A stretch of 64,000 nucleotides of DNA from Minisyncoccota bacterium (GCA_028711065.1 JAQTSY010000005.1:7656-71655); one strand, 5' to 3'; shown: positions 3,897 through 53,283, counted from the first letter of the stretch. The notes: generated by a model not told the origin, from the sequence alone. A program made the numbers and translations.

Positions 3897-4529
3897 ATGG
3901 AAAAAACCCCGAAAGTCGCTTGCATCGCCCTTGATTTTGACGAAACGCTCGCTTTCATAAACAATCCGAAAACAGAACTTTTCAATACATGGGAAAAACG
4001 CGGAGTACCGAAAGAGATCGGAGAAAAAGCGTACGAAGAGATTCATGATGGAGAAGGTTTTTCTTATCCGGGAATGAAAATTGTACTCAAAAAATACGGA
4101 TACGACATGGACGAGGGATTTGAAAAAGAATTGTGGGAACGGCTCGAGAGAGGACTTCAGACATTTACGGAAGTGAAGGAAACTATCGAGAGATGGAAGA
4201 AAATGATACCTGTTGTCATTGTCACAGCAGGAGAAGAATCATTTCAGAGAGAGAAAATAAAGAGAACCGGTCTCTCCGATCTCCCCTGCATAGTCACCAG
4301 AGTTGGAAATAAAACAAAGGCGCTTCGTACTTTTATCGAAAAATATGGCGAACCAGTTGCCTTCATTGATGATAAAATAAGCGAACTAGAAACACTTAAA
4401 AATGCTGGTTTTTCAGAGAAAGAGTTGATTCCAGTGCTTCTTGATAGAACTGGGAAAACAAAAAAGAGCCAGTTTGAGACGATCTCTAGCCTCGATGATC
4501 CAAAGCTCTCTGTGATTCTAGGATTTTAG
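3897..4529 (+). CDS. HAD-superfamily hydrolase
   Basis: N-terminal IALDFDETL (HAD DxD motif I). Size 210 aa. Confidence 0.55.
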   Translation: MEKTPKVACIALDFDETLAFINNPKTELFNTWEKRGVPKEIGEKAYEEIHDGEGFSYPGMKIVLKKYGYDMDEGFEKELWERLERGLQTFTEVKETIERWKKMIPVVIVTAGEESFQREKIKRTGLSDLPCIVTRVGNKTKALRTFIEKYGEPVAFIDDKISELETLKNAGFSEKELIPVLLDRTGKTKKSQFETISSLDDPKLSVILGF

Positions 4530-5348
4530 GCTGAGCTTTTGGCGAAGATATGCAAGAGAGCCGATAAGACCTCCGGAATCAGCGAGCTCTGCTTTTTTGA
4601 TAACGGGTACGGTCGGAAATGCTTTGAGAAGCTTCTCAACGTGTTTCGCAACATTGTCCACAGATATGCCCACCTTCTTTACTACCATACTCCCACCAAT
4701 GATAACGGCATCTGGAGACCAGAAAAGAAGGGCGTTGTGGACCCCAACAGCAAAAGTCTTTTCAACTTCGTTCCACACTTTTGGATCCGTAATCTCAGCC
4801 GGATGTTTGCCGTATTTTGCCGCAATTGCCCTACCGGAAACCAAATCCCCCAGAGAAGAAACTTCGCCGTTATAATCAACAATCTGATAACCTGGCTCGA
4901 AATTAAAATGAGTCCGATCTATTTTGCCATCGACGACGCGAGATCCTCCGACACCGGTCGAAACGGTAATGTAAGCGACAATGGGAAATCCTTTGCCGGC
5001 TCCATCCATTGCTTCGCCAAGACCAACCATCGCAGTGTCATTTTCAATGAAAACAAATGATTTTGTGATATCCGCTATTGTCCGATGAAGGGGTTGATTA
5101 ATCCAACCTTGCAGATTTTTACAGACCAAGAGCTTTTCATGGGCTTCATCCAAAGTACCGGGCACACCCCCGGCGACAGCAAGAATTTTTTCTCCATTGC
5201 TAATCTCATCAACTGCTTTCTTAAATAAATTTTCGAATTTTGAAAAATCCTTCGGAGTATCGACAATAACCGGAGTCGAAAGTTCCTTCCCATCTTTAGA
5301 CCCCGCAATTCTCATTTTTGTCCCGCCAATGTCAAATACAATATACAT
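4518..5348 (-). CDS. ROK-family sugar kinase (glucokinase-like)
   Basis: MYIVFDIGGTKMR... ATPase N-terminal motif, then a ROK-like GVGGS and ENDTAMVGLGE. Confidence 0.7.
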   Translation of the reverse strand: MYIVFDIGGTKMRIAGSKDGKELSTPVIVDTPKDFSKFENLFKKAVDEISNGEKILAVAGGVPGTLDEAHEKLLVCKNLQGWINQPLHRTIADITKSFVFIENDTAMVGLGEAMDGAGKGFPIVAYITVSTGVGGSRVVDGKIDRTHFNFEPGYQIVDYNGEVSSLGDLVSGRAIAAKYGKHPAEITDPKVWNEVEKTFAVGVHNALLFWSPDAVIIGGSMVVKKVGISVDNVAKHVEKLLKAFPTVPVIKKAELADSGGLIGSLAYLRQKLSLKS

Positions 5349-5350
5349 AT

Positions 5351-6316
5351 TTATGAGATGAGTTTTTTAAATTCTTCTACCATTGGAACCTGCTCCGCTT
5401 CAACTCCATACAGCATTGCCGTATGATAGGCGGTCCAATCGGCAAGAAGAAGCGAGCTGAAAACTTTTTCACTCCTCGTCGCGCCGGTGAGAGAATATTC
5501 GAATACAGTAATTCCTCGATCTTCGTAGAGTTTCTTCGTGACCTTAAATCGCTTGCGGTTTTGCGGATGGTCAGCATCATCAGAGAGAAATACAAAAACA
5601 AATTTTTCTGAAAGTGATTTCGTCTTCCCCGCACGATCAAATCCCGTCATCTCATTATGATTCAATTCTGGAAAAACGTTGCAAAATGAGGGTATTTTAC
5701 CCGTTTCGTTGAGTTTTATTTTCCAGTTGTACGCGACGGACATGTTCTTGTCGGACGCATAGATGACCGGTACAAATCCCGACAGCTTTTTGGCCAGCTC
5801 TTTTCCTTTTGTTTCGAGAGCCTTCGGATCAAGCTTTGTTGCGAGAGTATTGAGCTCTTTCAGCAATTTTTTATTTCCCAAAAGCGTGACGAGAGCAAGC
5901 AAAGAAAAACCAAGAGCGCTTCTCGGTTGAATTCCAGTATCAGGTAAGACAATTCTCGGAATATCATTTTTCGCTGCAAATTCAATGAGATTTCCTCCAA
6001 CAGCGATGACCGCAAGATTCAACCCCTTGTCAAAGGCTGATTTTGCAAAATCAATTGTCTCTTCGGTATTTCCAGAATACGAGGATGCAATGTAAAGAGT
6101 TTCGCTTCGTTGCGCTTCGGTATAAAAAGGTAATCCGTAATTTCTGTGGATTGTGATGGGAATTTCGACATCAAGTGCCGATAAAAGATCCGCCGAAAGA
6201 TGCGAACCTCCCATTCCCCCTACTACTACCTGCCCAAACACCTGCAACTTCTCCTCATTCTCTATCTTCGGCTTCCAAGCAAACTGTTTTGCAAAATCTC
6301 GAATCGCTTTGTCCAT
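5351..6316 (-). CDS. Bifunctional phosphoglucose/phosphomannose isomerase (SIS domain, archaeal type)
   Basis: 321 aa with GGMGGSHLSADLL, SYSGNTEET and an SIS-domain layout typical of PGI/PMI. Overlapping stop/start with the upstream kinase. Confidence 0.7.
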   Translation of the reverse strand: MDKAIRDFAKQFAWKPKIENEEKLQVFGQVVVGGMGGSHLSADLLSALDVEIPITIHRNYGLPFYTEAQRSETLYIASSYSGNTEETIDFAKSAFDKGLNLAVIAVGGNLIEFAAKNDIPRIVLPDTGIQPRSALGFSLLALVTLLGNKKLLKELNTLATKLDPKALETKGKELAKKLSGFVPVIYASDKNMSVAYNWKIKLNETGKIPSFCNVFPELNHNEMTGFDRAGKTKSLSEKFVFVFLSDDADHPQNRKRFKVTKKLYEDRGITVFEYSLTGATRSEKVFSSLLLADWTAYHTAMLYGVEAEQVPMVEEFKKLIS

Positions 6317-6328
6317 GTTTATAAAAAA

Positions 6329-7228
6329 TTATTTTTTAGTTTCTATTGAATGCCCGCCAAATTGATTACGGAGAGCCGAAAGAATCTTGCCGATGTAACT
6401 CGGAGTAGCTCCGGACTCAACTCGAAATTTGAATGAATCTTCAATGACTTTTGCCGGGATACCCAATTCTTTCCCAGCATTCACTGTCCATTCTCCTTCT
6501 CCGGTGTGAGAAACAGTTCCAGAGACTTCAGCCAAGTTCTTACCAAATTTTCTATACGCATCGGAAAGCCAGCCGACAAGACGTGATTCGATAACAGAAC
6601 GATGATTATAGATTTCAGTCACTTTCAAAAGATCGAGATCAAATTCTGATTTTTCGAGAATGGCAAAACCTTCTGCAAGCGATTGCATCATGCCGTATTC
6701 GATTCCGTTATGCACCATTTTGGTAAAATGTCCTGCTCCGGCTTTTCCTAAATATGCGTAGGCTTCCGGCGCAGCAATATCTTTAAATAAATCTTCATGT
6801 TTCTTAAACACTTCTTCCTCTCCGCCAATCATAAGGCAAGCGCCTTCGCGAGCTCCTTTCGGTCCCCCGGAAGTACCAACATCAAGAAAATGAATCTCTT
6901 TCCCCGCGAGTTCTTTCGCTCTCCGCATCGAATCTTTATAAAAAGAATTTCCGCCGTCTATGATAGTATCGCCTTTTTCGAGAAATCCGATAAATTCGGC
7001 AATGACAGAATCAACAACGTTATTTGGAACCATGACCCAAACAGTACGAGGAGTGGGAAGTTCGGCAAGAAGTGCTTCATACGAATCTGCCACGCGGAGA
7101 CCGGCTTTCTTACCCTCTAGACGAGGCTCTGGACTTCGATTATACGCAATGACGTCTTGCTTCTTTTCATGCAGCCGCAAGACCATATTCATTCCCATTT
7201 TTCCGAGTCCGATATATCCAAGTTTCAT
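6329..7228 (-). CDS. gnd: 6-phosphogluconate dehydrogenase, decarboxylating, short (about 300 aa) form
   Basis: MKLGYIGLGKMGMNMVLRL NAD(P)-binding N-terminus, then GGNSFYKDS and GTSGG. Typical of the YqeC-like short 6PGDH. Confidence 0.8.
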   Translation of the reverse strand: MKLGYIGLGKMGMNMVLRLHEKKQDVIAYNRSPEPRLEGKKAGLRVADSYEALLAELPTPRTVWVMVPNNVVDSVIAEFIGFLEKGDTIIDGGNSFYKDSMRRAKELAGKEIHFLDVGTSGGPKGAREGACLMIGGEEEVFKKHEDLFKDIAAPEAYAYLGKAGAGHFTKMVHNGIEYGMMQSLAEGFAILEKSEFDLDLLKVTEIYNHRSVIESRLVGWLSDAYRKFGKNLAEVSGTVSHTGEGEWTVNAGKELGIPAKVIEDSFKFRVESGATPSYIGKILSALRNQFGGHSIETKK

Positions 7229-35336: not shown

Positions 35337-36668
35337 TTACTGATACTGTATGAAGCTTGGCCGAGGAATAAGCTTTAGAACTTCAGCAGGCGTCATCATT
35401 CGAGGACTCGGCGGTAAAATATCATTTTTATAGAAAAGTTTGAAGCCGGTGAATTGCACTGGGTTTAGATATTCATACGCATTATAGGTACCCATTTTTT
35501 TCCCTGGAGAGCCCCAACCGTCCATATCCATGACAACCTGCACTTCAGGAAGCGGTTTGATCTGCTTATAATTCGTCACCATTGCTTGGGTGTAGCGATG
35601 GACGATGAGCACTTTTGGCGGCAAATTATTTGCGCGGACTAGTCCCGCCAAATAATTTGCCGCCCAGTTTATATCTGTCGCATCCACAGTTCCCACGACA
35701 GTCCCCGGTCTCGCCTTGCTTGGCGCCATGGCAAATTCTGGATCAATCGCCAAGTGCACCTGTGGCATTTTCAAATATTTTTCAAGAAGCGGGACTTCTG
35801 TCTGTACCGTCGAGAGCCCGACTTGAACTTCGAGAATCACGATACCATTCACTTGGGAAGCAAGGTCAAGCGCGTGATCCATCTGGCTCGAAGGCATTCT
35901 CGCTCGATATTTTCCATCCGCCCCCGCACTTCCCTGCGCCGTCACGGCAATGTAGTCGATAGCGGGCATTACAGGGGTAACTGGATCGGCAATCTCCCAC
36001 TTGTGTATTTCACCTTGGAGCTTTGCGAGCATTTCAGCAGGAGGATACTGGCCAAGAACTCCCATGCCTTTCGCGTAGAAATTTCCGTAGTAAGCGATGA
36101 TGCGCTTGAATGGCAAGATGGCCCCACCAAGCGGGTAGAGAGGCTTTCCATCTGCATTTAGAATTTTTACCGGCCACAATTTGGGAACAACCCTCGGCAC
36201 TGTGGTGGTAGCTTTTTTTGTCGTCGAAGTGCCCACAAGGGTAGGCGTGGGAATAGTAGAAGAACCAATTTGAGTTCCATTATTCGCGAGTATCGCCATT
36301 CTTCTGTCGTAATCAACAAAATCTAGAACAATCGGGGTTGGGGTAGGCGAATCAGTAGATTCGGGGCTTGGCCCAAAACTATTTCTGATTTTCGAAATCG
36401 GCTTATAGTCAGCTACCACGTAGTTATTTTGACCAGGCAGCCAATTGGTATACCCCACAACGTATACGACAAAAATACCCACAAGAGAACAAAATGCCAC
36501 TATAAGAATAGGGAGCAGAACTTTCCTCGCTTTATTCTTCTTTTTCTTTTCCGTAGAAATAGTAAATGAAAAAAAATTTGTAAATGCTTTGCTTAGTGTA
36601 CCATATCTTTTTCCGCAACTGCCTTTCGCAAATACTCTTTGCATTCCTTGAAACACTCTTCGCAGCAA
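35337..36668 (-). CDS. Membrane-anchored extracytoplasmic protein (hypothetical; TIM-barrel-like C-terminus possible)
   Basis: TM helix, then a Pro/Thr-rich linker (SPTPTPIVLD...TTKKATTTVPR), then a conserved-looking C-terminal domain. The annotated start overlaps trhO by 76 nt, so the real start is probably a downstream or non-ATG codon. Confidence 0.35.
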   Translation of the reverse strand: MLRRVFQGMQRVFAKGSCGKRYGTLSKAFTNFFSFTISTEKKKKNKARKVLLPILIVAFCSLVGIFVVYVVGYTNWLPGQNNYVVADYKPISKIRNSFGPSPESTDSPTPTPIVLDFVDYDRRMAILANNGTQIGSSTIPTPTLVGTSTTKKATTTVPRVVPKLWPVKILNADGKPLYPLGGAILPFKRIIAYYGNFYAKGMGVLGQYPPAEMLAKLQGEIHKWEIADPVTPVMPAIDYIAVTAQGSAGADGKYRARMPSSQMDHALDLASQVNGIVILEVQVGLSTVQTEVPLLEKYLKMPQVHLAIDPEFAMAPSKARPGTVVGTVDATDINWAANYLAGLVRANNLPPKVLIVHRYTQAMVTNYKQIKPLPEVQVVMDMDGWGSPGKKMGTYNAYEYLNPVQFTGFKLFYKNDILPPSPRMMTPAEVLKLIPRPSFIQYQ

Positions 36669-37468
36669 AGAAGTTTCGGAGAAGGGCGAAGCCTCGTATC
36701 AGAGCAATAATTTTCAGTTTGGGCTCCGCAAGAAAAACACTCTCCTATCGTAATTTTCTTCTCGGTTGGCGCGACATCAGTCGTCATTCTGTTATCAAAA
36801 ACAAAAAGCGTGCCCTTGAAATGTTTGCCGGGGTATTCTTGCATGTAGGTATGAATACCGTCTTTCAATTGATACACATTCTTGAACCCCTCACGTTTTA
36901 AAAGACATGTCGCCTTCTCGCATCGGATGCCTCCTGTGCATACTGTTACCACTTTTTTATCTTTAAGATCCGCGAGCTTGCCGAGCTTTTTCGGCAAATC
37001 ACGGAAATTCGATAATCCTGGATCGATCGTCTTGTCGAATTTCCCGCTTGCGATTTCATAATCATTGCGGAGATCAAGCACAACAAAATCTTCTTGGTCT
37101 TCGTACCATTTCTCTAATTCTGCCGAAGGAAGTGCTGGCGCTGTTTCATTTTTCACGTCAAATGTCCCCGCGCCGAGCGTGATGACCTCACTTCGAATTT
37201 TTATTTTTAATTTAGGAAATGCTTTTCCATCCCCTGCGCTTTCTTTTACCAAAATGTCGGAAAAAAATGGTTCGCTCCGAAGAAACGCTTTGTAAGCATC
37301 TATTGCTCCCCGAGTACCCTCGAACGTTGCATTGACGCCTTCTTCTGCGAGAAGCATGCGCCCAGAAAGTGAGAGCTCGGTACATTTTTCCCTGTGTGCC
37401 TCTGCTACTGTCTCCAGATTTGAGAGAGATCCAAATTTATAGAAAAGGATAACGACGTATTCTTTCAT
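36593..37468 (-). CDS. trhO: tRNA uridine(34) hydroxylase TrhO (rhodanese-domain, UPF0176/YceA family)
   Basis: N-terminal ILFYKF...LLAEEGVNATFEG and a rhodanese active-site CTGGIRCEK. Confidence 0.75.
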   Translation of the reverse strand: MKEYVVILFYKFGSLSNLETVAEAHREKCTELSLSGRMLLAEEGVNATFEGTRGAIDAYKAFLRSEPFFSDILVKESAGDGKAFPKLKIKIRSEVITLGAGTFDVKNETAPALPSAELEKWYEDQEDFVVLDLRNDYEIASGKFDKTIDPGLSNFRDLPKKLGKLADLKDKKVVTVCTGGIRCEKATCLLKREGFKNVYQLKDGIHTYMQEYPGKHFKGTLFVFDNRMTTDVAPTEKKITIGECFSCGAQTENYCSDTRLRPSPKLLCCEECFKECKEYLRKAVAEKDMVH

Positions 37469-39502: not shown

Positions 39503-40804
39503 TTATTTCCCTCCTCCAGAATACTTGAAAATATTTTTAACCGCCCCACCAAAAAATTCCTTTGAATAATCGATTCCTTTTTCGAAGAGCATGATAAATC
39601 CTGGGCTTCTTCCTACATCATACAATGACGCCCAAATATTATGTCTGCCAAACACTTTGTCGACAACTATCTGCGCAGTAATACCTGCATAGGTCATCCC
39701 ATTCCCTGAAAATCCGAATGCATACATAACACGCTCACCCGGATGGAGTTCGCCAATGTATGCCAATCCATCAATGGATTCGAGGATCGGCCCGCTCCAT
39801 CTTCGTACTATTTTATAGGAAAGTTTTGGAAAAGTCGTGGCCACAAAATCCTCGAGAGCTTTGAAACATTTTTCTTCGTTTATATGAATGTCAGCACGAT
39901 GATCTTCGCCCCCGACAATCATCCGGTCAAATTTTTTCCCTGCATCAACTCTCCAATAATGATAGGGACTTTTCAAATCCTCATATATGCCTTCCGGTAA
40001 AACTCCCTTTTCTATTTCAAGTTCAAACACATAGGACGTATAGAGGGCTTTTTTGAAATACAGAGAGGATGGATGCTTGAACGGCTCATACGTAGAAGCG
40101 ATGACCCAATCCGCTCTGATGTTTCCTGAAGCTGTCCTAACCGCCTGCGCCTTTCCGTGCGAGTTATGCATAATCGAAAGTGCTTCAGTATTCTCATATA
40201 TTTCCACGCCAAGTTTTCTCGCTCGTTCGAGAAGCGCGCCGATAAATTTCATAGGATGAAACTTTGCTTGGCCCTCTGTTAACAAGTATCCTTCATTTTT
40301 AAATCCAAGTTCATTCTCTTCTTTCCCGACAAAAGAAGCTTCTCGCCCAAGAGTCTTCAGCACTCTTAATTCCTCCTTAAGCAGATTTTTTTCTTTGACA
40401 GTGGTGGCATAGATACGATTTTCACAGCGAGTGAAATCGCAGTCAATCTTTTCATCGCGGATGATGGATTCGATAAGAAGAATAGCTTCTTCATGAGAAT
40501 TGAGAATAATACTTGCAGGAATCGTTCCCAAACCTTTTACGAGCTCTGAGGGCCTGGTATCCAAAGATTCAGTAATAAAAGCGGTGGTAACACCCGTAGC
40601 GCCGAAGCCAACTTTCCCCTTCTCAACAAGGACAACTTTTTTTCCCCCTTTGGCGAGGAGATACGCCGAAAGTGCTCCAGTAATTCCGCCCCCAATAATG
40701 ACGACGTGAGCGGAGGTGTCAGCATCGAGCGCAGGATATTTCCTAAGAGTAACGCCTTCATCCCAGGTCAGAACATCCGTTGTGTTTTGATCTTCTCTCT
40801 TCAT
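39503..40804 (-). CDS. FAD-dependent oxidoreductase (DAO family)
   Basis: VVIIGGGITGALSAYLLAKGGKKVVLVEK dinucleotide-binding motif. 433 aa. Confidence 0.75.
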   Translation of the reverse strand: MKREDQNTTDVLTWDEGVTLRKYPALDADTSAHVVIIGGGITGALSAYLLAKGGKKVVLVEKGKVGFGATGVTTAFITESLDTRPSELVKGLGTIPASIILNSHEEAILLIESIIRDEKIDCDFTRCENRIYATTVKEKNLLKEELRVLKTLGREASFVGKEENELGFKNEGYLLTEGQAKFHPMKFIGALLERARKLGVEIYENTEALSIMHNSHGKAQAVRTASGNIRADWVIASTYEPFKHPSSLYFKKALYTSYVFELEIEKGVLPEGIYEDLKSPYHYWRVDAGKKFDRMIVGGEDHRADIHINEEKCFKALEDFVATTFPKLSYKIVRRWSGPILESIDGLAYIGELHPGERVMYAFGFSGNGMTYAGITAQIVVDKVFGRHNIWASLYDVGRSPGFIMLFEKGIDYSKEFFGGAVKNIFKYSGGGK

Positions 40805-45091: not shown

Positions 45092-45685
45092 ATGCAAGCT
45101 GGAGAATTGTACGACCTTGCGTACAGTGCGCTAGGAGATACTCTCACACTCGAACCTGCTGTCGCTACGACAATCGCGGTAAAACACGCGGCCAAAGGAA
45201 AAGCTTTGGACATAGGATGCGGTCAAGGCAGGGACACTCTGTTCCTTGCCGAGAGCGGGTTCGATGTGGTCGGTATCGACATTTCGAGGGTAGGCATTGA
45301 GAGGCTGAACGCAAGAGTTAAGGGCAAGAACCTCAAGCTGAAAACTGTAGTGGGAGACGTCCGCCAGGAGCTTTTAAAAGACGAATACACCCTTATCGTC
45401 TGCAATCGCGTCCTACAGGACATCCCGCAAAAAGACAGCTTGTGGATGATCGAGCGTATGCAGTCTAAAACATTGCCTCGAGGCGTCAATTTCATTGCTG
45501 CCTACGGCCATGGTACGCTCGAAACAAATCGGCTTCTGGACGAAGAAGGTCATTTTTTTGGGAGTAGTGAGCTCCGCAAGCTCTATGTTGGATGGGAAAT
45601 ACTTTATTACTCATCCGACATGGAGCAGATCGGCAGAGCAACATACAACCCTTTCTTTACCATCGTCGCACAGAAACCAAAGTAA
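45092..45685 (+). CDS. Class I SAM-dependent methyltransferase (TehB-like)
   Basis: ALDIGCGQGRDTLFLAESGFDVVGIDIS SAM-binding motif I. The DNA is clearly GC-richer than its surroundings. Confidence 0.75.
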   Translation: MQAGELYDLAYSALGDTLTLEPAVATTIAVKHAAKGKALDIGCGQGRDTLFLAESGFDVVGIDISRVGIERLNARVKGKNLKLKTVVGDVRQELLKDEYTLIVCNRVLQDIPQKDSLWMIERMQSKTLPRGVNFIAAYGHGTLETNRLLDEEGHFFGSSELRKLYVGWEILYYSSDMEQIGRATYNPFFTIVAQKPK

Positions 45686-47353: not shown

Positions 47354-48031
47354 TTATTTCGTCGTCTTGCCGAAGATAAGTCGTGCAGCTGCCCCAAGAG
47401 CAAGAAGGACAAGCGCTCCGAGAATATAAGAAGTATAATTTCTTGCTCCGCTTGTTTCTATCGCAGCCAAATCTTTCACAACCAAAGGAGTTGCAGTTGT
47501 CGAAACTCCCTGTCCTGCGTTATTCGTTTCCCCCGCGACAGAATTATTTGTTGCTACTGTCGCATTTGAAATTGTGATTTGAACTGGTGCTCCTCCATTA
47601 GCAGAGAATACATTTTTGTTTTGAGCGTTGTAAATCTCTGTATCATTCGCTACTGCGAGAGATGCGGTACCCGACTTGAGCGCAGTAAATGTTACTGTAC
47701 CGAAAATCTTTCCAGCGGAAATTCCTCCGGGATATCCAGCTGTCTTTACAAGCGATCCAGAATCCATACTGTCATAGCCGGGCTGTGAAAGCGGGAGCCA
47801 TACTGGAGCAAAATTGAACGCGGTCGCTTTCAAAAGATCTTTCGAATAGGAAAGTGCAACTTTAGAAGTATAGACGCTCTCGCCTGCTGGAATCACTGAA
47901 ACCTGCACAGTAACTGTCTGGCCAGCTTTTACATTGAATGTTGAAGGTATAAGAGAAACATTAGCCGCTGCAGAAGCAAAAGCTGGAACAGCCAGCGCAA
48001 GAACAATAAGTGAAAAGATAAATTTCTTCAT
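47354..48031 (-). CDS. Cell-surface protein with N-terminal signal peptide and C-terminal TM anchor (hypothetical)
   Basis: MKKFIFSLIVLALAVPAFASAAA signal, beta-rich body, C-terminal LGALVLLALGAAARLIF anchor. Confidence 0.4.
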   Translation of the reverse strand: MKKFIFSLIVLALAVPAFASAAANVSLIPSTFNVKAGQTVTVQVSVIPAGESVYTSKVALSYSKDLLKATAFNFAPVWLPLSQPGYDSMDSGSLVKTAGYPGGISAGKIFGTVTFTALKSGTASLAVANDTEIYNAQNKNVFSANGGAPVQITISNATVATNNSVAGETNNAGQGVSTTATPLVVKDLAAIETSGARNYTSYILGALVLLALGAAARLIFGKTTK

Positions 48032-48036
48032 GATAA

Positions 48037-49095
48037 TTATTTTGCCCAGTTAATGAGTAATTGATTAAAATCCAAAATATCTACGGCACCGTCGAGGTTA
48101 AAATCTGCAGGATTTCCCTTCCCTTTCTTACCCCAATTTACTAGAAGAAGATTGAAGTCGAGGATGTTGTATGTATGCGCACCCAAAACTTTTCCTGAAC
48201 CGCCAGAAGAACCACCGCTGGCTGCATGATGAGTCGGCGTCGGAGATGGAGTCGCTTCGGGAGTAGGTGAAGGCGTTGGAGTCGGCGTAATTTCTGGGGT
48301 TGGACTTGGTGTCGGCGTTACTTCAGGAGTCGGCGAAGGTGTGGGTGTAACTTCCGGTGTTGGAGAAGGAGTTGGTTCTGGCGTGACAGTCGGTGTAGGA
48401 GTTGGTGTCACTTCAGGCGTTGGTGTTGAAGCTGGAGCGGGATCATCTAAAGTAATGGTACAAGTTTTTGTCTCATCTTTGATGAAAGTCCCTGTACAAT
48501 CTTCCGAAAAACTTTTTACATAGCCATGAGCATCTACGACATCGATCGTATAGCTCCCCGGATGAATTTGAAAAAGTTGTCCGGGATCCTCTTTCCCTGC
48601 CGCATTGCCACTGGTTACAGAATCCGTCGATCTGGTCTGAAAGCTAGGAGCAGTAAGCGTACCGGAATCATCATTAACAACATGAGTAATAACATGAAGC
48701 TTTCCACTGCAAGGAGTAGAATTGCTAGAGTAATCGGTTACGTATGAATCATCGGAACCGTGTTCAAGAATTGCCGTCGCTATGCAACCAACGACATATT
48801 TATCCGGAGTAGTAGAGAGAAATCGAAAATCATTTGCTCCAGAAGAGAGAGGAAGAAAGTTAGGATGAATAATAACATCTGGTTCACTAGTATGGAGGAC
48901 GATACGAACTCTGTAGGTACTGATATCAGCAGATGCTGTCAAAAATCCTGAAACAGATATGGCGATAGGGTCAGTGCCTGCTGTGCTCGAAGTGATAAAG
49001 ACTCTCGGTAGGAGAGCTGCTGCTCCTGCAGTATGAGCAAAAGCGAACACTCCTAGAATAAGAAGACCTGCTGAAATCAATTTGTAACTTTTCAT
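48037..49095 (-). CDS. Secreted protein with a Pro/Thr-rich linker and C-terminal dockerin-like repeats
   Basis: Signal peptide, then a ([14 protein letters not shown])n linker, then C-terminal ...[13 protein letters not shown]...[23 protein letters not shown], which looks like two dockerin type I Ca-binding segments. Confidence 0.5.
48235..48440. repeat. Imperfect tandem DNA repeats (about 24 nt unit) encoding the PT-linker
   Basis: Reiterated GGTGTCGGCGTTACTTCAGGAGTCGGCGAAGG-type units, corresponding to [12 protein letters not shown] on the coding strand. Confidence 0.5.
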
Positions 49096-49240
49096 AATTT
49101 CGATTAAATAGTAATAAAAGGCATTAAAAAAGGCTCTAAAGAGCCATAAAAACAGATTCGTGTCTAACGGTACTACTATACACTAACAAATATGAAAAGT
49201 CAACTAATTCTCTGGATGAGAAACTAGGCTGTTTTGAACG

Positions 49241-50416
49241 CTATCCGCACGAAGAAATTATTTTTCTGTAGTACTCCTCATACTGCGCGACGATTTTTTC
49301 AGAACAAAAGTTTGATCGGGCCCGTTCTTTTGCATTTTCTCCAATTTTTTTCACGAGAGATTCATCATAGGAAAGTTCCAGAAGCTTTTTTGCAAAATCA
49401 TCTACCTTCCCCACTCCAAATAAATACCCCGTTTTGCCGTCTTGCAGAACTTCTGAAATTCCTCCGGCATTTGTTGCGAGCACTGGCTTACCATATGACA
49501 TCGTTTCAAGAATTCCCATTCCAAAACTTTCTGTTTCAGAAGTATAGATGCCGATGTCAGCGGCATTAATATAATTTTCGATATCTAGAACATTTCGTTT
49601 TATAATTATTTGGTCGCCTATACCTAACTCCTCAACAAGAGGCTTAAAGGGAGCAAAGTCCGCCCCCGCGAGAATTAAAAGCTTTATTTTCTTATTTTCT
49701 TTGACCTTTCCGAGAATCGCCAAAAGATCCGGAATTCTTTTCACTTTGCGCAAATTAGAAAGATGGATCGCTAGGAAATCTGTATCCGCCACACCAATCT
49801 CTTTTCTTACTTCTTCAGCACTTTTTGCGACAGGTTTCGGAGTATAGAAATTATGAATAACCTCGATATGTTTCTTGGTATCAAGATTTTTTATCGTATC
49901 TTTTTTTAAACTTTCTGAAACTGCCGTAACCCCGCATGAACTTTCAATGGAATATTTGATAACCGGCATCACCGTTTTATCCCGCGCGAGAAGGGTAATA
50001 TCAGTACCGTGAAGGGTCGTGATTATGTTTGGAAAAGGAATTTTTTCTTCATCCGCAATATCTTTTGCCAGAAGTGCGGCGGTAGCATGAGGCACAGCAT
50101 AATGCACGTGTAAAATATCGAGCTTGAATTCTTTGCAGACATCCACAATTCGGACCGCGAGCGGGAGGGTGTAATCGGGGTATTTGAAAAGCTCGTAGCC
50201 GTTGAAATCGACTTTATGGAAAAAAATATTCGGTAATTTCCTATCGAGCGCGAAGGGCGGATCATAGCTTAAAAAATGGACCTCGTGTCCCCTCTTCGCA
50301 AGTTCGCTCCCGAGTCCAGTCGCGACAATCCCGCTCCCACCAACAGATGGGTAGCAGACGATTCCTATTTTAAGAGACTTTCCCGTCCCCTTTTTCGAAG
50401 TAGTAAAAAATCCCAT
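49241..50416 (-). CDS. bshA: GT4 glycosyltransferase of the BshA type (N-acetyl-alpha-D-glucosaminyl L-malate synthase-like)
   Basis: KIGIVCYPSVGGSGIVATGLGSELAKRGHEVHF, LDILHVHYAVPHA, TTLHGTDITLLA, HLSNLRKVKRI and EKIVAQYEEYY are very close to the conserved blocks of Bacillus BshA. The start is set at MGFFTTSKK. Confidence 0.8.
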   Translation of the reverse strand: MGFFTTSKKGTGKSLKIGIVCYPSVGGSGIVATGLGSELAKRGHEVHFLSYDPPFALDRKLPNIFFHKVDFNGYELFKYPDYTLPLAVRIVDVCKEFKLDILHVHYAVPHATAALLAKDIADEEKIPFPNIITTLHGTDITLLARDKTVMPVIKYSIESSCGVTAVSESLKKDTIKNLDTKKHIEVIHNFYTPKPVAKSAEEVRKEIGVADTDFLAIHLSNLRKVKRIPDLLAILGKVKENKKIKLLILAGADFAPFKPLVEELGIGDQIIIKRNVLDIENYINAADIGIYTSETESFGMGILETMSYGKPVLATNAGGISEVLQDGKTGYLFGVGKVDDFAKKLLELSYDESLVKKIGENAKERARSNFCSEKIVAQYEEYYRKIISSCG

Positions 50417-50417
50417 T

Positions 50418-51116
50418 TTAATAATTTCTCGCGGAAGATCCCAATTGAGAAAGAGTATCGGCTCGAATAGCATCATTGACCCAAAGCACTGTTGCATATT
50501 TCACATCAATCGAGGCGCCATAGGCTTTTGCCCGGCTCTCGATCATATTCACATAATTTTTCGTCTTCATTTGGCTTTCATGAACTGCGACAGCTTTCAT
50601 CCATGTATCATACTGCGCCGAGACATCGATAATGATATCGGGTTTTTTCTCAAATCCATGACTTGATGGATAGAAGTAAAGACTTTCGATAGAATGCGAA
50701 GGAAGTTTTTTTAATTCTTCTAATCCGCCGTAGCGGGCGAGACGAGATGCAGAGCGAGCCATTTGAGAGAGAGCATAATGATCTGGATGCTGATTCTCGA
50801 AATAAGAAGTTGAAAGAACAATGTTTGGTTTGTATTCGCGGATGATCTTTGCGAGTTTGAAAGCGTTTTTGGGAGTGTTTTCCATATGTGAATCTCCCCC
50901 TAAAGATATGAATTCTATTTCGGCACCAATGATTTTCGCTGCCATTTCTGCCTCTTTCTGGCGGCCTTCCGAAGTCCCATTCGTCCCCGCTTCCCCAAGT
51001 GAGCAGACAACAATTTTCACCTGCGAACCTGCTTCAATCTCTTTGATAAGGAGGCCTGCGCAGCCAAATTCGACATCGTCTGGGTGAGCACCAAATGCAA
51101 GGATTTTTTTAGACAT
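50418..51116 (-). CDS. bshB: LmbE/PIG-L-family N-acetylglucosaminyl deacetylase (BshB-like)
   Basis: ILAFGAHPDDVEFGCAG zinc-binding motif and HPDHYA. Its stop abuts the bshA start. Confidence 0.7.
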   Translation of the reverse strand: MSKKILAFGAHPDDVEFGCAGLLIKEIEAGSQVKIVVCSLGEAGTNGTSEGRQKEAEMAAKIIGAEIEFISLGGDSHMENTPKNAFKLAKIIREYKPNIVLSTSYFENQHPDHYALSQMARSASRLARYGGLEELKKLPSHSIESLYFYPSSHGFEKKPDIIIDVSAQYDTWMKAVAVHESQMKTKNYVNMIESRAKAYGASIDVKYATVLWVNDAIRADTLSQLGSSARNY

Positions 51117-51149
51117 ACAATTTAATGGCAATCTCTATTAATAAGTTTA

Positions 51150-51923
51150 CTACACTTCACCAATATAGGCATACTCGCTTTTTTCTATTTCCTGTCGATC
51201 TACAAAAACGACTTCTGGAAAATCTGATTTTTTAAGATATGCGCCTTCTCCTGCTCCAGAAATATAATGTGTGCTGTGAATCACTGATTGCATCCAGGCA
51301 AAGCGCTCATCACGTCCTGGATTTTTCTGCCATTTTTCGATTTTTGCAGGCGCAGGAATTGTAAAATATTTTCCTCCGCCTTCATGGAGCCGAAAGTCCC
51401 CCTCATGCATTTCAGCGCGAACAATTTCTCCTTCGTATGGGATATCGGCAAAAAACTCTGATAACTCTGACGCTTTCGTTCGGAAATCTTTATCGGATGA
51501 GCGCATGACTTCAATTCCCTCGAGAAGTCCCATTCGTGTATACATATCGAGACAGAAATCTGCAGCATTGTCTCCAGCGGCACCCGCGAAAATATCTATC
51601 ATTTTTTTGCCGACAAAACGGGGCAATTTTCGTAAAGTTTCTTCTTTCCAACCGACAGGAATCTTTTTGAGATACAACGGAGAATATTTCTTTTGAATTT
51701 TGTTCTCTTGGGTGAAATTCAATCGCCCTTCCTCCTTCGTTTTCAAATCTTCAAGGATAGTGATTGTTTCCCGATAATCAGCGTCACTGTCGTGATAGAA
51801 AAAGACAATTCTCCCTCCGATCTCTTTTTGTAATTTCCGAGCAGTCTGGATTTTGGCATAGAGAAAACGCTTGGGGAAAATCCCGCAGGGTTGCTGGCCG
51901 AAGGCTATGATTGGTGTGGACAT
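51150..51923 (-). CDS. Hypothetical protein with resemblance to the N-terminal domain of BshC (bacillithiol cysteine-adding enzyme)
   Basis: IIAFGQQPCGIFPKRF resembles BshC VVGGQQAGLLTGPLY, and IVFFYHDSDADYRE resembles BshC IPIFWVAGEDHDLDE. At 257 aa it is about half the length of BshC. The BshC call is weak. Confidence 0.4.
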   Translation of the reverse strand: MSTPIIAFGQQPCGIFPKRFLYAKIQTARKLQKEIGGRIVFFYHDSDADYRETITILEDLKTKEEGRLNFTQENKIQKKYSPLYLKKIPVGWKEETLRKLPRFVGKKMIDIFAGAAGDNAADFCLDMYTRMGLLEGIEVMRSSDKDFRTKASELSEFFADIPYEGEIVRAEMHEGDFRLHEGGGKYFTIPAPAKIEKWQKNPGRDERFAWMQSVIHSTHYISGAGEGAYLKKSDFPEVVFVDRQEIEKSEYAYIGEV

Positions 51924-51926
51924 ACA

Positions 51927-52745
51927 TTATTTCTTAATAAGAGCGGATTCGCTAAAACCATGAGTCCAATAAACCTTTGAATAGAGTTTTGTATAGTCCG
52001 TCAATTCTCTTATAAGCCTCTTCCTTCTTTCTCGACTCACTTTTCCAAGCAGTAAAGCCGTTTCGGAAGGAGAAAGAGAAAGGATAAGCGATAAGAGGCG
52101 GGAGGTGATGATGTTATCTTTATTATTCATTAATTGCACAAGATACTTTATTCCTTTCTGTTTATATTGATACGCGGTAATTTCTTTCTCGATATTATTT
52201 TCAAGCTTCAGGTAAACAAATAAAGAAAGAGATTTTGGCTTCTTTCCAAGAAGCAACTTGCTAGACATTTTCAGGGCAGAGCCAGTCGCAGAAATGTCGT
52301 CTATAAGAATAATTCTCTTGTTTCGAACGCGAGGCCCGTAATAATGAAGTTTCTTTTCTAAAATCTTTCTCTTTGCAGTTGGCGAAAGGTCGTAATAAGA
52401 AGTGTTTCCAAAATAAATATTTTCTAGTACAATTTCCCCTTTTTGCATTTGTAAGATCCTTGCAATGGAATTGACCAAAGATACGGCAACGCTTGTTTGA
52501 GTCGTGGCAGGATGATTGATGATAATATAATCTTTTCTATTCTTACGGAAATCCTTTGGCAGAGTTGACGAAATAGCTTTGGCCATTTCTCGAGCACACT
52601 TTTCCACTGCATGGACGTCCCCGAGCTTAAGGGCGGAGAGGAAAAGAAAAAAATCTTTATCCAAGCGAAGATCCCTTCGAGAACATTTTCTTAATGCTGT
52701 GATTGGATATTTTTTGCCTTCGATACGAATGTTACTCGGTGACAT
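51927..52745 (-). CDS. Phosphoribosyltransferase-domain protein (type I PRTase/ComF-like)
   Basis: RIILIDDISATGSALK PRPP-binding motif. It is the first gene of the 4-gene operon. Confidence 0.55.
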   Translation of the reverse strand: MSPSNIRIEGKKYPITALRKCSRRDLRLDKDFFLFLSALKLGDVHAVEKCAREMAKAISSTLPKDFRKNRKDYIIINHPATTQTSVAVSLVNSIARILQMQKGEIVLENIYFGNTSYYDLSPTAKRKILEKKLHYYGPRVRNKRIILIDDISATGSALKMSSKLLLGKKPKSLSLFVYLKLENNIEKEITAYQYKQKGIKYLVQLMNNKDNIITSRLLSLILSLSPSETALLLGKVSRERRKRLIRELTDYTKLYSKVYWTHGFSESALIKK

Positions 52746-52855
52746 GATTCTTTGCGGGTCAGGGAGTGTCGGTCGTTACACGACCAGTATCCCGATTCGT
52801 TTTTTCTTTCAGAAAAAAGCTGAATCGGGCTTCGAGTCCCTGGGCCAGGAAACTC

Positions 52856-52919
52856 TTTCCCTACGGGAACAGTATCCCCGATGGATTTTTTAGACGCGCT
52901 CACGCGCTTTAAAAAATAC
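52856..52919 (-). repeat. Copy 1 of a conserved structured repeat module (candidate ncRNA or miniature mobile-element end), downstream of tRNA-Gln
   Basis: Minus strand reads GCCCCGATGAGTA-[TTTTTTAAAGCGCG-TGA-GCGCGTCTAAAAAA]-TCCATCGGGGATACTGTTCCCGTAGGGAAA. The 30-nt 3' block is identical to 61674-61703. It is flanked by antisense copies of a tRNA T-arm (GGGACTCGAAGCCCC). Confidence 0.45.
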
Positions 52920-52991
52920 TCATCGGGGCTTCGAGTCCCTGCCGAAGTAACCCCCGTTACTTCGGGCAGAAAATTTCCTTCGGAAATTTTG

Positions 52992-53062
52992 CTGCGGGTC
53001 AGGGACTCGAACCCCAATAACATCCTCCAGAGGGATGTGTCCTACCATTAGACGAACCCGCA
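52992..53062 (-). tRNA. tRNA-Gln (anticodon CTG)
   Basis: Manual cloverleaf: acceptor TGCGGGT/ACCCGCA (U1-A72, G73, as in bacterial tRNA-Gln), D-arm GTCT-AATGGTA-GGAC, anticodon stem CATCC/GGATG with loop CTCTGGA, T-arm TGGGG-TTCGAGT-CCCTG. No encoded CCA. Confidence 0.75.
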
Positions 53063-53083
53063 ATATTATAAATTCTCTAAAAT

Positions 53084-53139
53084 TGTCCTACCATTAGCCT
53101 GCCCGCGGACGGGCTTTGCCGGCCAGGGACGAACCCGCA
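53084..53139 (-). pseudogene. Partial duplicate of the 5' 25 nt of tRNA-Gln, interrupted by a 31-nt palindromic insert
   Basis: Minus strand: TTGCGGGTTCGTC + CCTGGCCGGCAAAGCCCGTCCGCGGGCAGGC + TAATGGTAGGACA. Compare the tRNA: TGCGGGTTCGTCTAATGGTAGGACA. Confidence 0.45.
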
Positions 53140-53283
53140 ATTCAATTACAGAAACAGAACTAAGCCCATAATACTAAACCAGCTTATACGAAAAATGACG
53201 AAAAATCCAATCCGCTCAAATAAAAACATGTAATCGAGTAAACCCGACTGCACGCTCATTTCCCAGAAGATGATTCTGTTCAC

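What the first reader, a model, noticed from the sequence alone, without database searches (positions are those of the whole stretch)
49241..52745. Compact bshA-bshB-(half-size bshC-like)-PRTase operon: a bacillithiol-like low-molecular-weight thiol pathway in a reduced genome
Four minus-strand genes are packed with gaps or overlaps of 4 nt or less.
- The GT4 gene matches Bacillus BshA block for block: CYPSVGGSG, LDILHVHYA.PHA, TTLHGTDIT, SNxRKVKR, EKIV.QYE.
- The next gene is an LmbE-type deacetylase (AHPDDVEFGCAG), as BshB is.
- The third gene (257 aa) shares motifs with the N-terminal domain of BshC (GQQ...G..P and the hydrophobic-D/E-D-x-D block) but has only half its length.
- A PRTase-domain protein leads the operon.

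Bacillithiol biosynthesis has not, as far as I know, been described in CPR-like minimal genomes, so this points to an unrecognised redox buffer there. A truncated BshC, possibly working with the PRTase-fold partner, would be a new variant of the cysteine-adding step, which is still mechanistically unclear even in Bacillus. The operon also ends exactly at the tRNA-Gln integration scar.
Basis: partly seen in the sequence, partly recalled or inferred. Interest (0 to 1): 0.65.

Follow-up and report, generated by a model that had tools for sequence, protein, structure and literature searches.

The report
Compact BshC-like gene beside bshB-bshA
A small, unannotated 257-residue protein that looks like the catalytic core of BshC (the poorly understood last enzyme of bacillithiol synthesis) always sits just upstream of bshB and bshA, in this candidate-phyla-radiation (CPR) genome and in hundreds of Verrucomicrobiota- and Melainabacteria-labelled genomes, so these lineages probably make a bacillithiol-type thiol by a pathway that homology surveys have missed.

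Summary
The four minus-strand genes are real. The GT4 gene passes NCBI's BshA equivalog model (424 bits, cut-off 273.7). The LmbE gene is best matched by BshB1 but falls just below cut-off (161.6 vs 182.5).

The 257-aa protein hits no Pfam, NCBIfam or PDB sequence model. Its AlphaFold model (pLDDT 92.5) has B. subtilis BshC (4WBD) as top PDB fold match (E 7e-9), followed by class I aminoacyl-tRNA synthetases. A collinear profile alignment to BshC residues 82-357 puts 15 conserved positions of each family on top of each other (shuffles: 1.9 on average, at most 9).

The family is large (5,491 clusters; at least 571 species genomes). It is not confined to reduced genomes. In 77 of 85 loci examined the order is 257-aa gene, bshB, bshA.

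The PRTase gene is not part of the system. It is absent from all 85 related loci, replaced by DinB-NUDIX-PNPOx in the closest relative, nearly an orphan, and lower in GC.

Verdict: a new compact variant of the BshC step in a conserved three-gene cassette. The function is inferred, not shown.

The parts
49241..50416 (-). [quoted passage not shown] The start is taken at M28; the longest ORF reaches 50497.
   Evidence: TIGR03999 scores 424 bits against a cut-off of 273.7, over profile positions 1-374 of 375. Pfam Glycos_transf_1 and Glyco_transf_4 also match. Homologues are 389-394 aa with about 15 residues before KIGIVCYP, which favours the M28 start.
50418..51116 (-). bshB-like LmbE/PIG-L deacetylase. 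The ATG start gives 232 aa; an alternative TTG start lies at 51131.
   Evidence: The best family is TIGR04001 BshB1 at 161.6 bits, below the 182.5 cut-off. PF02585 PIG-L scores 87.3 against 28.2. AHPDD and HPDH motifs are present in the translation. The 232-aa length matches the gene called in L004.
51150..51923 (-). Compact BshC-like protein ('mini-BshC', 257 aa), the predicted third-step ligase of the cassette.
   Evidence: - No Pfam, NCBIfam or PDB sequence hit.
- AF2 model pLDDT 92.5; top Foldseek PDB hit is 4WBD BshC at E 6.9e-9.
- hhalign aligns it collinearly to BshC 82-357, with 15 co-conserved identical positions against 1.9+-1.4 in shuffles.
- It lies upstream of bshB-bshA in 77 of 85 loci.
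51927..52745 (-). Strain-specific PRTase-fold gene. It is physically first in the gene string but is not part of the conserved cassette.
   Evidence: - PF15610 scores 27.4 (GA 28.7) and PF00156 scores 25.2 (GA 26.3).
- It has a PRPP-loop sequence, RIILIDDISATGS.
- AF2 plus Foldseek give generic type I PRTases.
- Only 3 clusters exist in 5.8e9, and it is absent from all 85 related loci.
- GC is 37.6% against 42-43% for neighbours.
52753..52765 (-). Exact 13-bp direct copy of the 3' end of tRNA-Gln (att-like repeat). It lies inside a 33-bp block conserved with the closest relative and marks the upstream edge of the variable cassette.
52991..53062 (-). tRNA-Gln(CTG).
   Evidence: ARAGORN. The same tRNA sits at the same position in relative L004.
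49132..49145 (-). Terminator-like hairpin plus T-run downstream of bshA; the likely 3' end of the transcription unit.
   Evidence: Consensus scan. This is only a pattern match.

Best explanation
The conserved unit is a three-gene cassette: mini-BshC, bshB, bshA. It most likely makes bacillithiol or a very close derivative.

Predicted steps:
1. BshA condenses UDP-GlcNAc with L-malate. This is inferred from passing the equivalog model.
2. The LmbE enzyme removes the acetyl group to give GlcN-malate. This is inferred from the best family match and the metal-site motifs.
3. The 257-aa protein ligates cysteine to the free amine, as BshC is thought to do. This step is inferred, not shown.

The 257-aa protein is a free-standing Rossmann-type, class-I-aminoacyl-tRNA-synthetase-like core equivalent to about residues 85-385 of BshC. 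It keeps the family's conserved positions: GQQ.G after strand 1, F(F/W)xxxDxDxxE after strand 2, xSxD, and MQ...xGxGExxY before the last strand. It lacks BshC's N-terminal ~85 residues and its C-terminal coiled-coil dimerisation domain.

The PRTase gene ahead of it is a strain-specific insertion into a variable slot next to tRNA-Gln. It is probably co-transcribed but functionally unrelated.
For: - BshA: 424 bits against a 273.7 cut-off. The GT4 genes of four distant carriers also pass, at 392-424 bits.
- BshB1 is the best model for the deacetylase in every case tested.
- Structure: the G3 model has pLDDT 92.5. 4WBD BshC is the top hit of 350,542 PDB chains at E 6.9e-9 and TMq 0.63. The next hits are class I LysRS at 1e-3, then GluRS, TyrRS and GlnRS.
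- Sequence: hhalign gives one collinear alignment of 208-210 columns, G3 2-230 to BshC 82-357, E 0.0024. Its score exceeds all 150 block shuffles. It pairs 15 identical positions that are at least 90% conserved in both families, against 1.9+-1.4 (maximum 9) in 120 shuffles.
- Linkage: the order G3, bshB, bshA on one strand holds in 77 of 85 loci. Five more have G3 then bshA, and three contigs are truncated. The loci span 35-70% GC.
- Conservation: 55-85% identity across phyla and 48 invariant positions.
- Redox context: DinB sits next to the cassette in the closest relative. msrA, msrB, G6PD and 6PGD lie nearby in Doudnabacteria-labelled loci.
- PRTase exclusion.
Against: - No biochemical or metabolite evidence exists for any carrier of this cassette.
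- G3 gives no HMMER-level hit to PF10079 or TIGR03998, even at E<=10. With a larger, less diverse G3 alignment the hhalign score is not above shuffles (30 of 150 reach it).
- The deacetylase is below the BshB1 cut-off in all carriers tested (124-163 against 182.5).
- No bacilliredoxin, Bdr/YpdA, FosB or DinB was found among about 50 ORFs scanned in this 64-kb window.
- I could not test whether carriers lack canonical BshC.
- BshC's own reaction has never been reconstituted (PMC5790435), so 'works like BshC' inherits that uncertainty.
- In the high-GC loci the cassette follows a sodium:solute symporter and an 850-aa secreted PIG-L protein. The model does not explain this.
Confidence: 0.6

Rival explanations
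1. The cassette builds on GlcN-malate, but the 257-aa ligase attaches something other than cysteine, or acts on a different acceptor. The product would be a different metabolite, either a novel thiol or a non-thiol compound, rather than bacillithiol.
For: - G3 is only about 15-21% identical to BshC.
- The deacetylases score below the BshB1 cut-off.
- No known bacillithiol-using enzymes were seen in the window.
- The high-GC loci add a symporter and a large PIG-L protein that have no counterpart in known bsh loci.
Against: - The GT4 passes the BshA equivalog model by a wide margin in every lineage tested.
- The positions conserved in BshC are the ones conserved in G3, which argues for the same chemistry.
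- A DinB-family gene is adjacent in the closest relative. From my own knowledge, DinB is the family of bacillithiol and mycothiol S-transferases.
Confidence: 0.2
2. The GT4 and LmbE genes serve cell-envelope glycoconjugate synthesis. The 257-aa protein is an unrelated aminoacyl-tRNA-synthetase-like protein that merely travels with them.
For: - GT4 and PIG-L families are common in envelope pathways.
- Two surface-type proteins lie just downstream in this window and in L004.
- A secreted PIG-L protein lies upstream in the high-GC loci.
Against: - The equivalog-level BshA score is 424 bits, against at most 90 bits for any envelope GT4 model.
- The best structural match of G3 is BshC specifically, five orders of magnitude ahead of the tRNA synthetases.
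- The three-gene order is kept across phyla while the flanks change completely.
Confidence: 0.07
3. One reading: a truncated BshC works together with the PRTase-fold protein as a two-component cysteine-adding system.
For: The PRTase gene ends 3 nt before the 257-aa gene on the same strand. It has an intact PRPP-loop motif and a PRTase fold.
Against: - No PRTase homologue lies within 6 kb of the 257-aa gene in any of 85 loci.
- The 86.7%-identical syntenic relative carries DinB-NUDIX-PNPOx in that slot.
- There are only two homologues (30-32% identity) in 5.8 billion clusters, neither near bsh genes.
- Its GC is lower.
- It has weak similarity to PRTase components of defence systems (PRTase_III-A, ShosT, PsyrT).
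Confidence: 0.03

Closest known systems
BshC (YllA) of Bacillus subtilis, PDB 4WBD; Pfam PF10079 + PF24850; NCBIfam TIGR03998
   Same: - Top structural match.
- Collinear remote alignment to residues 82-357 with shared conserved positions: G, Q, G, A, D, D, E, W, F, S, P, M, G, E, Y.
- Genetic association with bshA and bshB. From the review PMC5790435, BshC itself was found through co-occurrence with bshA.
   Different: - Less than half the length (257 aa against 539 aa). It has no N-terminal ~85 residues and no C-terminal coiled-coil domain.
- No HMMER-detectable similarity.
- Always immediately upstream of bshB-bshA, whereas B. subtilis bshC is transcribed separately with panE (PMC5790435).
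- It forms its own compact family of 239 representatives, none of BshC length.
Catalytic domain of class I aminoacyl-tRNA synthetases (e.g. class I LysRS 1IRX, GluRS, TyrRS, GlnRS)
   Same: Rossmann-type nucleotide-binding fold. These are the second tier of structural matches, at E 1e-3 to 5e-2. The two G3 motifs lie at the ends of the first strand and of the penultimate strand of the predicted sheet. My own inference is that these positions correspond to HIGH and KMSKS.
   Different: No HIGH or KMSKS sequence and no anticodon-binding domain. TM-scores are much lower (0.3-0.5).
MshC, the cysteine ligase of mycothiol synthesis
   Same: The analogous step in a parallel GT4 - LmbE - ligase pathway. 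From my own knowledge, MshC is an ATP-dependent CysRS homologue, so it is also class-I-synthetase-like.
   Different: No sequence match was seen. The mycothiol models score far lower than the bacillithiol ones for the GT4 and the deacetylase (MshA 60 bits, MshB 28 bits).
Bacillus bshA-bshB1 operon
   Same: Adjacent bshB and bshA genes of the same two families.
   Different: Here the ligase gene is in the same operon and comes first. mgsA and the pantothenate genes are absent.
ComF-like / PRTase_3 proteins and defence-system PRTases (ShosT, PsyrT, PRTase_III-A); applies to the PRTase gene only
   Same: Type I PRTase fold and PRPP loop, with weak profile matches.
   Different: All scores are below or near thresholds. 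No partner gene typical of those systems was seen next to it.

Membership tests
[quoted passage not shown] | Whole-protein score at or above the curated equivalog cut-off (273.7 bits), with a full-length match | tested here: met
   424 bits over profile positions 1-374 of 375. Four distant cassette GT4s score 392-424 bits.
[quoted passage not shown] | Uses L-malate as acceptor and UDP-GlcNAc as donor | not testable with these tools
   Needs an enzyme assay. Inferred only from the equivalog score.
BshB1 (TIGR04001, bacillithiol biosynthesis deacetylase) | Whole-protein score at or above the curated cut-off (182.5 bits) | tested here: not met
   161.6 bits. It is the best family by far (BshB2 scores 44 bits) but falls below cut-off. 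Other cassette deacetylases score 124-163 bits.
BshB1 (TIGR04001, bacillithiol biosynthesis deacetylase) | LmbE/PIG-L fold with AHPDD and HxxH metal-site motifs | tested here: met
   PF02585 scores 87.3 bits against 28.2. AHPDDVEF and QHPDHYA are in the translation.
BshC (TIGR03998; PF10079 N-terminal + PF24850 C-terminal) | Match to the family's sequence models | tested here: not met
   No hit to the window protein at E<=0.01. No hit for any of 29 family members at E<=10. No PDB sequence hit.
BshC (TIGR03998; PF10079 N-terminal + PF24850 C-terminal) | Length of about 540 aa with a C-terminal coiled-coil dimerisation domain | tested here: not met
   257 aa. The alignment ends near BshC residue 357-385, and the model has no long helical tail. 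Canonical BshCs carry PF24850.
BshC (TIGR03998; PF10079 N-terminal + PF24850 C-terminal) | Rossmann-type catalytic core with the BshC fold | tested here: met
   Foldseek top hit is 4WBD at E 6.9e-9, probability 1.00 and TMq 0.63, from a model with pLDDT 92.5.
BshC (TIGR03998; PF10079 N-terminal + PF24850 C-terminal) | Family-conserved residues (GQQ.G, FWxxxEDHDxxE, NSxD, MQE...GPGExxYW) | tested here: met
   15 identical positions at least 90% conserved in both families, against 1.9+-1.4 in shuffles, with 0 of 120 shuffles reaching 15. The overall hhalign score is marginal.
BshC (TIGR03998; PF10079 N-terminal + PF24850 C-terminal) | Co-occurrence or co-localisation with bshA and bshB | tested here: met
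   77 of 85 loci have G3-bshB-bshA and 5 more have G3-bshA.
BshC (TIGR03998; PF10079 N-terminal + PF24850 C-terminal) | Required for addition of cysteine to GlcN-malate in vivo | not testable with these tools
   Needs genetics or complementation and thiol analysis.
Type I phosphoribosyltransferase (PF00156 / PF15610 PRTase_3), for the 272-aa gene | Pfam gathering score | tested here: not met
   PF15610 scores 27.4 against 28.7, and PF00156 scores 25.2 against 26.3. Both are just below cut-off.
Type I phosphoribosyltransferase (PF00156 / PF15610 PRTase_3), for the 272-aa gene | PRTase fold and PRPP-binding loop | tested here: met
   The AF2 model (pLDDT 77) matches PyrR, HGPRT, APRT and ComF at E about 1e-5. 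The RIILIDDISATGS loop is in the translation.

The most novel reading that the evidence does not exclude
The 257-aa family is the minimal, self-sufficient cysteine-adding enzyme of a bacillithiol-type pathway. Three things would follow.
- It would give Patescibacteria, Verrucomicrobiota and Melainabacteria a low-molecular-weight thiol. Verrucomicrobia were listed in 2018 among lineages with no documented or predicted thiol.
- It would show that BshC's coiled-coil and N-terminal regions are dispensable for catalysis.
- It would offer a small, highly conserved protein with which the still-unreconstituted BshC reaction could finally be worked out.
Probability: 0.45. Interest if true: 0.8.

Novelty: new variant of a known kind. 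Interest (0 to 1): 0.68.

Why it matters
Three points make this worth following up.
- BshC is the one step of bacillithiol synthesis whose reaction is still unknown. It has never been reconstituted, and the activated form of cysteine is unidentified (PMC5790435). A half-size, strongly conserved version that keeps only the Rossmann core narrows where the chemistry must happen, and it is an easier protein to study.
- Published surveys of bacillithiol genes required BshC hits of similar length and more than 80% coverage (PMC6282198; PMC12719100), so they could not see this family. One of them names Verrucomicrobia among lineages with 'no documented or predicted' redox thiol. The cassette found here predicts such a thiol in at least 571 species-level genomes of Patescibacteria-, Verrucomicrobiota- and Melainabacteria-labelled MAGs.
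- For CPR bacteria, it would mean that organisms with minimal biosynthetic capacity still spend three genes on a dedicated redox buffer.

Tried and rejected
- **Sequence models on the 257-aa protein.** Pfam, NCBIfam, PADLOC, PHROGs and PDB sequence searches (single sequence and profile) all returned nothing relevant.
- **Profile search of 1.84 billion representatives.** It found only the family itself (239 hits, none of BshC length). It therefore gave no bridge to BshC and no fused or intermediate forms.
- **hhalign variants.** Against a single BshC sequence it aligned only the C-terminal motif. With a 140-sequence, low-diversity G3 alignment the score was not above block shuffles. Only the more diverse 29-sequence alignment gave a score above all shuffles.
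- **Missing paper and contig.** The BshC structure paper (PMC4303302) is not held. Look-up of the window's own contig by exact protein failed.
- **PRTase as partner.** Rejected on comparative grounds.
- **TehB-like methyltransferase at 45092-45685 as a possible NmbA (N-methyl-bacillithiol synthase).** Its PDB matches are TehB proteins and generic methyltransferases, with nothing called NmbA. The idea was dropped.
- **Bacillithiol-using partners in the window.** I looked for DinB, Brx, Bdr/YpdA and FosB. None was found among about 50 ORFs scanned. This is weak evidence, because only 64 kb is available and not every small ORF was scanned.
- **Complementarity with canonical BshC.** Whether carrier genomes lack canonical BshC could not be tested.


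Full report
**1. What is in the sequence**

Four co-directional minus-strand ORFs occupy 49241-52745:
- a GT4 glycosyltransferase (longest ORF 49241-50497);
- an LmbE/PIG-L protein (50418-51131);
- a 257-aa ORF (51150-51923), called G3 below;
- a 272-aa PRTase-like ORF (51927-52745), called G4 below.

The junctions are tight but not uniformly '4 nt or less'.
- G4/G3: 3 nt.
- LmbE/GT4: 1 nt if the GT4 starts at M28. Homologue lengths and the start of the HMM match favour this start.
- G3/LmbE: 18 nt with the TTG start, or 33 nt with the ATG start. The ATG start gives the 232-aa length called in the closest relative.

A terminator-like hairpin follows the GT4 gene at 49145-49132. tRNA-Gln lies at 52991-53062. 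An exact 13-bp copy of its 3' end lies 8 nt upstream of the G4 start codon. Proteins identical to G3 and G4 are on record from a Candidatus Pacebacteria/Paceibacterota MAG, named 'hypothetical protein' and 'phosphoribosyltransferase'.

**2. The two ordinary genes**

The GT4 scores 424 bits on NCBI's BshA equivalog model TIGR03999 (cut-off 273.7) over the whole profile. The next best GT4 model reaches 90 bits, and MshA reaches 60 bits.

The LmbE protein is best matched by BshB1 (TIGR04001) at 161.6 bits. This is below the 182.5 cut-off but far above BshB2 (44), Mca (30) and MshB (28). It carries the AHPDD and HPDH motifs.

The same pattern holds in distant carriers labelled Opitutaceae, Obscuribacteraceae, Doudnabacteria and Nomurabacteria. 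There BshA scores 392-424 bits and the deacetylase 124-163 bits. The sub-threshold BshB score is thus a property of this whole clade, not a defect of this gene.

**3. The 257-aa protein**

Sequence-model searches find nothing.
- No Pfam or NCBIfam family matches at E<=0.01.
- No BshC model (PF10079, TIGR03998) matches any of 29 diverse family members, even at E<=10.
- No PDB chain matches by phmmer or by profile.

Yet the protein is anything but an orphan. 5,491 clusters (90% identity) match at E<=1e-3. All are about 255-265 aa and none carries a Pfam domain. The top 120 are 55-100% identical, and 48 positions are invariant among 60 members. A profile search of 1.84 billion representatives finds only 239 hits, none of BshC length. 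The family is therefore compact, discrete and without fused or intermediate forms.

An AlphaFold2 model built on the family alignment is confident (pLDDT 92.5, pTM 0.89). Foldseek against 350,542 PDB chains puts B. subtilis BshC (4WBD) first, at E 6.9e-9, probability 1.00 and TM 0.63 normalised to the query. Only then come class I aminoacyl-tRNA synthetases (class I LysRS 1e-3; GluRS, TyrRS and GlnRS at 4e-3 and weaker).

For sequence-level corroboration I first verified the B. subtilis BshC sequence against chain 4wbd_A. I then collected canonical BshCs, all carrying PF10079 + PF24850, and compared profiles.

hhalign gives one collinear alignment of about 208 columns, G3 2-230 to BshC 82-357 (E 0.0024). 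The evidence is marginal on score alone.
- With the diverse 29-sequence G3 alignment the score (31.0) exceeds all 150 block-shuffled controls (maximum 30.2).
- With a larger but less diverse alignment it does not (30 of 150 controls reach it).

A more specific test is clearer. The alignment superposes 15 identical positions that are at least 90% conserved in both families: G9/G89, Q11/Q91, G14/G94, A28/A113, D47/D134, D49/D136, E52/E139, W92/W179, F123/F213, S142/S232, P202/P324, M211/M337, G223/G350, E226/E353 and Y229/Y356. Block shuffles give 1.9 +- 1.4, with a maximum of 9 and 0 of 120 reaching 15.

G3 therefore corresponds to the Rossmann-type core of BshC. It lacks the first ~85 residues and the C-terminal coiled-coil domain. 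According to the review PMC5790435, that coiled coil mediates BshC dimerisation.

**4. Genomic association**

Gene neighbourhoods of homologues on long contigs show G3 followed by a PIG-L gene and a GT4 gene.

In the 85 loci I hold, which span 35-70% GC:
- 77 have G3, BshB-like and BshA-like genes in that order on one strand;
- 5 have G3 directly followed by BshA;
- the remaining 3 are contigs that end inside or before the cassette.

The flanks differ completely between lineages. The three-gene order is what is conserved. None of the 85 loci has a canonical BshC within 6 kb.

The record titles name many Verrucomicrobiota (Opitutaceae, Verrucomicrobiia, Limisphaerales, including an 8.86-Mb chromosome). 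They also name Melainabacteria/Obscuribacterales and Patescibacteria groups (Nomurabacteria, Doudnabacteria and others). MAG labels can be wrong in detail, but the GC range shows the cassette lives in very different genomes. It is not an adaptation of reduced genomes.

**5. The PRTase gene**

G4 has a PRPP loop and a generic type I PRTase fold.
- The AF2 model has pLDDT 77 and matches PyrR, HGPRT, APRT and ComF at about 1e-5.
- It lies just below the Pfam thresholds for PRTase_3 and Pribosyltran.
- It has weak matches to defence-system PRTases.

It is not part of the system.
- No homologue lies near G3 in any of the 85 loci.
- Only two homologues (30-32% identity) exist among 5.8 billion clusters, in unrelated contexts.
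- Its GC is 37.6%, against 42-43% for its neighbours.
- The closest relative (L004) is 86.7% identical in DNA and syntenic on both sides. It carries DinB, NUDIX and PNPOx genes in exactly this slot.

The slot is bounded upstream by a 33-bp block shared by both genomes. That block contains the copy of the tRNA-Gln 3' end. Downstream, the slot is bounded by the start of G3. G4 is therefore cargo of a variable site next to tRNA-Gln. Co-transcription with the cassette is likely from the 3-nt spacing, but a functional partnership is not supported.

**6. Mechanism**

Shown here:
- family membership of BshA;
- the LmbE fold and motifs of the deacetylase;
- fold and conserved-position similarity of G3 to the BshC core;
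- invariant gene linkage.

Inferred:
- UDP-GlcNAc + L-malate gives GlcNAc-malate (BshA), which is deacetylated to GlcN-malate;
- cysteine is then added by G3;
- the two G3 motif regions lie after the first strand and before the last strands of the predicted sheet, where class I synthetases bind nucleotide, which suggests nucleotide-dependent activation. This placement is my inference.

BshC's own reaction has never been reconstituted and its activated cysteine donor is unknown (PMC5790435). The last step is therefore the least certain.

Supporting context is modest. A DinB-family gene sits next to the cassette in the closest relative. Methionine sulfoxide reductases and the NADPH-producing G6PD and 6PGD lie nearby in Doudnabacteria-labelled loci. 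In this window no Brx, Bdr, FosB or DinB was seen among about 50 ORFs scanned.

**7. Comparison with what is known, and novelty**

By the defining sequence models and architecture, G3 is not a member of the BshC family as currently delimited. It resembles BshC in fold, conserved residues and genomic association. I therefore file it as a new compact variant of the BshC step, not as 'a BshC'.

I found no paper linking bacillithiol with Patescibacteria or Parcubacteria in any substantive way. Two genome surveys of bsh genes required BshC hits of similar length to the query. The 2025 survey also required more than 80% coverage (PMC6282198; PMC12719100). Neither could have detected this family. [quoted passage not shown] The cassette described here is a concrete candidate answer.

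**8. Verdict**

It is wrong on the PRTase partner and on the link to genome reduction.

The strongest result is broader than the original finding: a three-gene cassette (mini-BshC, bshB, bshA) conserved across several phyla. Function remains inferred. Complementation of a bshC mutant and thiol profiling of a cultured carrier would settle it.

Noticed in passing
window 52745-53260; L004 4180-4620: The region around tRNA-Gln is littered with tRNA fragments.
- An exact 13-bp copy of the tRNA 3' end lies at 52753-52765.
- A partial copy of the tRNA 5' end (TTGCGGGTTCGTC) lies upstream, inside a block 94% identical to the relative.
- The 227 bp between tRNA and repeat contain two hairpin-plus-T-run elements that share GGGACTCGAAGCCC.
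This looks like the remains of repeated integration and excision at this tRNA.
   Followed up: partly
L004 4585-5987 (closest relative; corresponds to window 51927-52745): The relative carries DinB (PF05163), NUDIX and PNPOx-like genes directly upstream of the 257-aa gene, where this window has the PRTase gene. From my own knowledge, DinB-family proteins include bacillithiol and mycothiol S-transferases, so this cargo may be functionally linked to the cassette in that strain.
   Followed up: partly
L078 1594-8636 and about 50 other high-GC loci (L022-L085): In the loci labelled Verrucomicrobiota and Melainabacteria the cassette is the end of a longer co-directional string: DUF2911 protein, an ~850-aa PIG-L + NPCBM_assoc protein, a sodium:solute symporter (SSF), mini-BshC, BshB, BshA. 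The symporter gene overlaps the mini-BshC start by a few bases. It was found in 53 loci and the large PIG-L protein in 45. The role of these extra genes is unexplained.
   Followed up: partly
L006, L007, L009-L014, L029 (about 4100-6000): In Nomurabacteria-type low-GC loci a fused ABC_membrane + ABC_tran exporter gene lies next to the mini-BshC gene, immediately upstream and on the same strand in most of them. I did not test whether it exports a thiol or cysteine.
   Followed up: no
L002/L016, L003, L015, L034, L074: In Doudnabacteria-labelled loci msrA, msrB, G6PD and 6PGD lie within a few kb of the cassette. This is an oxidative-stress / NADPH theme. This window also has a 6PGD-like gene (6329-7228), but it is 43 kb away.
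   Followed up: partly
L002/L016, L015, L024, L079: Five loci have mini-BshC followed directly by BshA with no deacetylase between them. The deacetylase may be elsewhere in those genomes or may be dispensable.
   Followed up: no
window 47354-49095: Two genes just downstream of bshA encode signal-peptide proteins with no Pfam match for the one tested. The 352-aa protein has a long Pro/Thr-rich linker and a dockerin-like C-terminal repeat ([10 protein letters not shown]). Both are conserved in the closest relative.
   Followed up: no
window 45092-45685: TehB-type SAM methyltransferase. I checked it as a possible N-methyl-bacillithiol synthase. Its solved relatives are TehB proteins and generic methyltransferases, not NmbA.
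   Followed up: yes
window 36593-37468 and 39503-40804: A rhodanese-domain protein (UPF0176 type) and a DAO-family FAD oxidoreductase lie 12-15 kb from the cassette. No link to the thiol pathway was tested.
   Followed up: no
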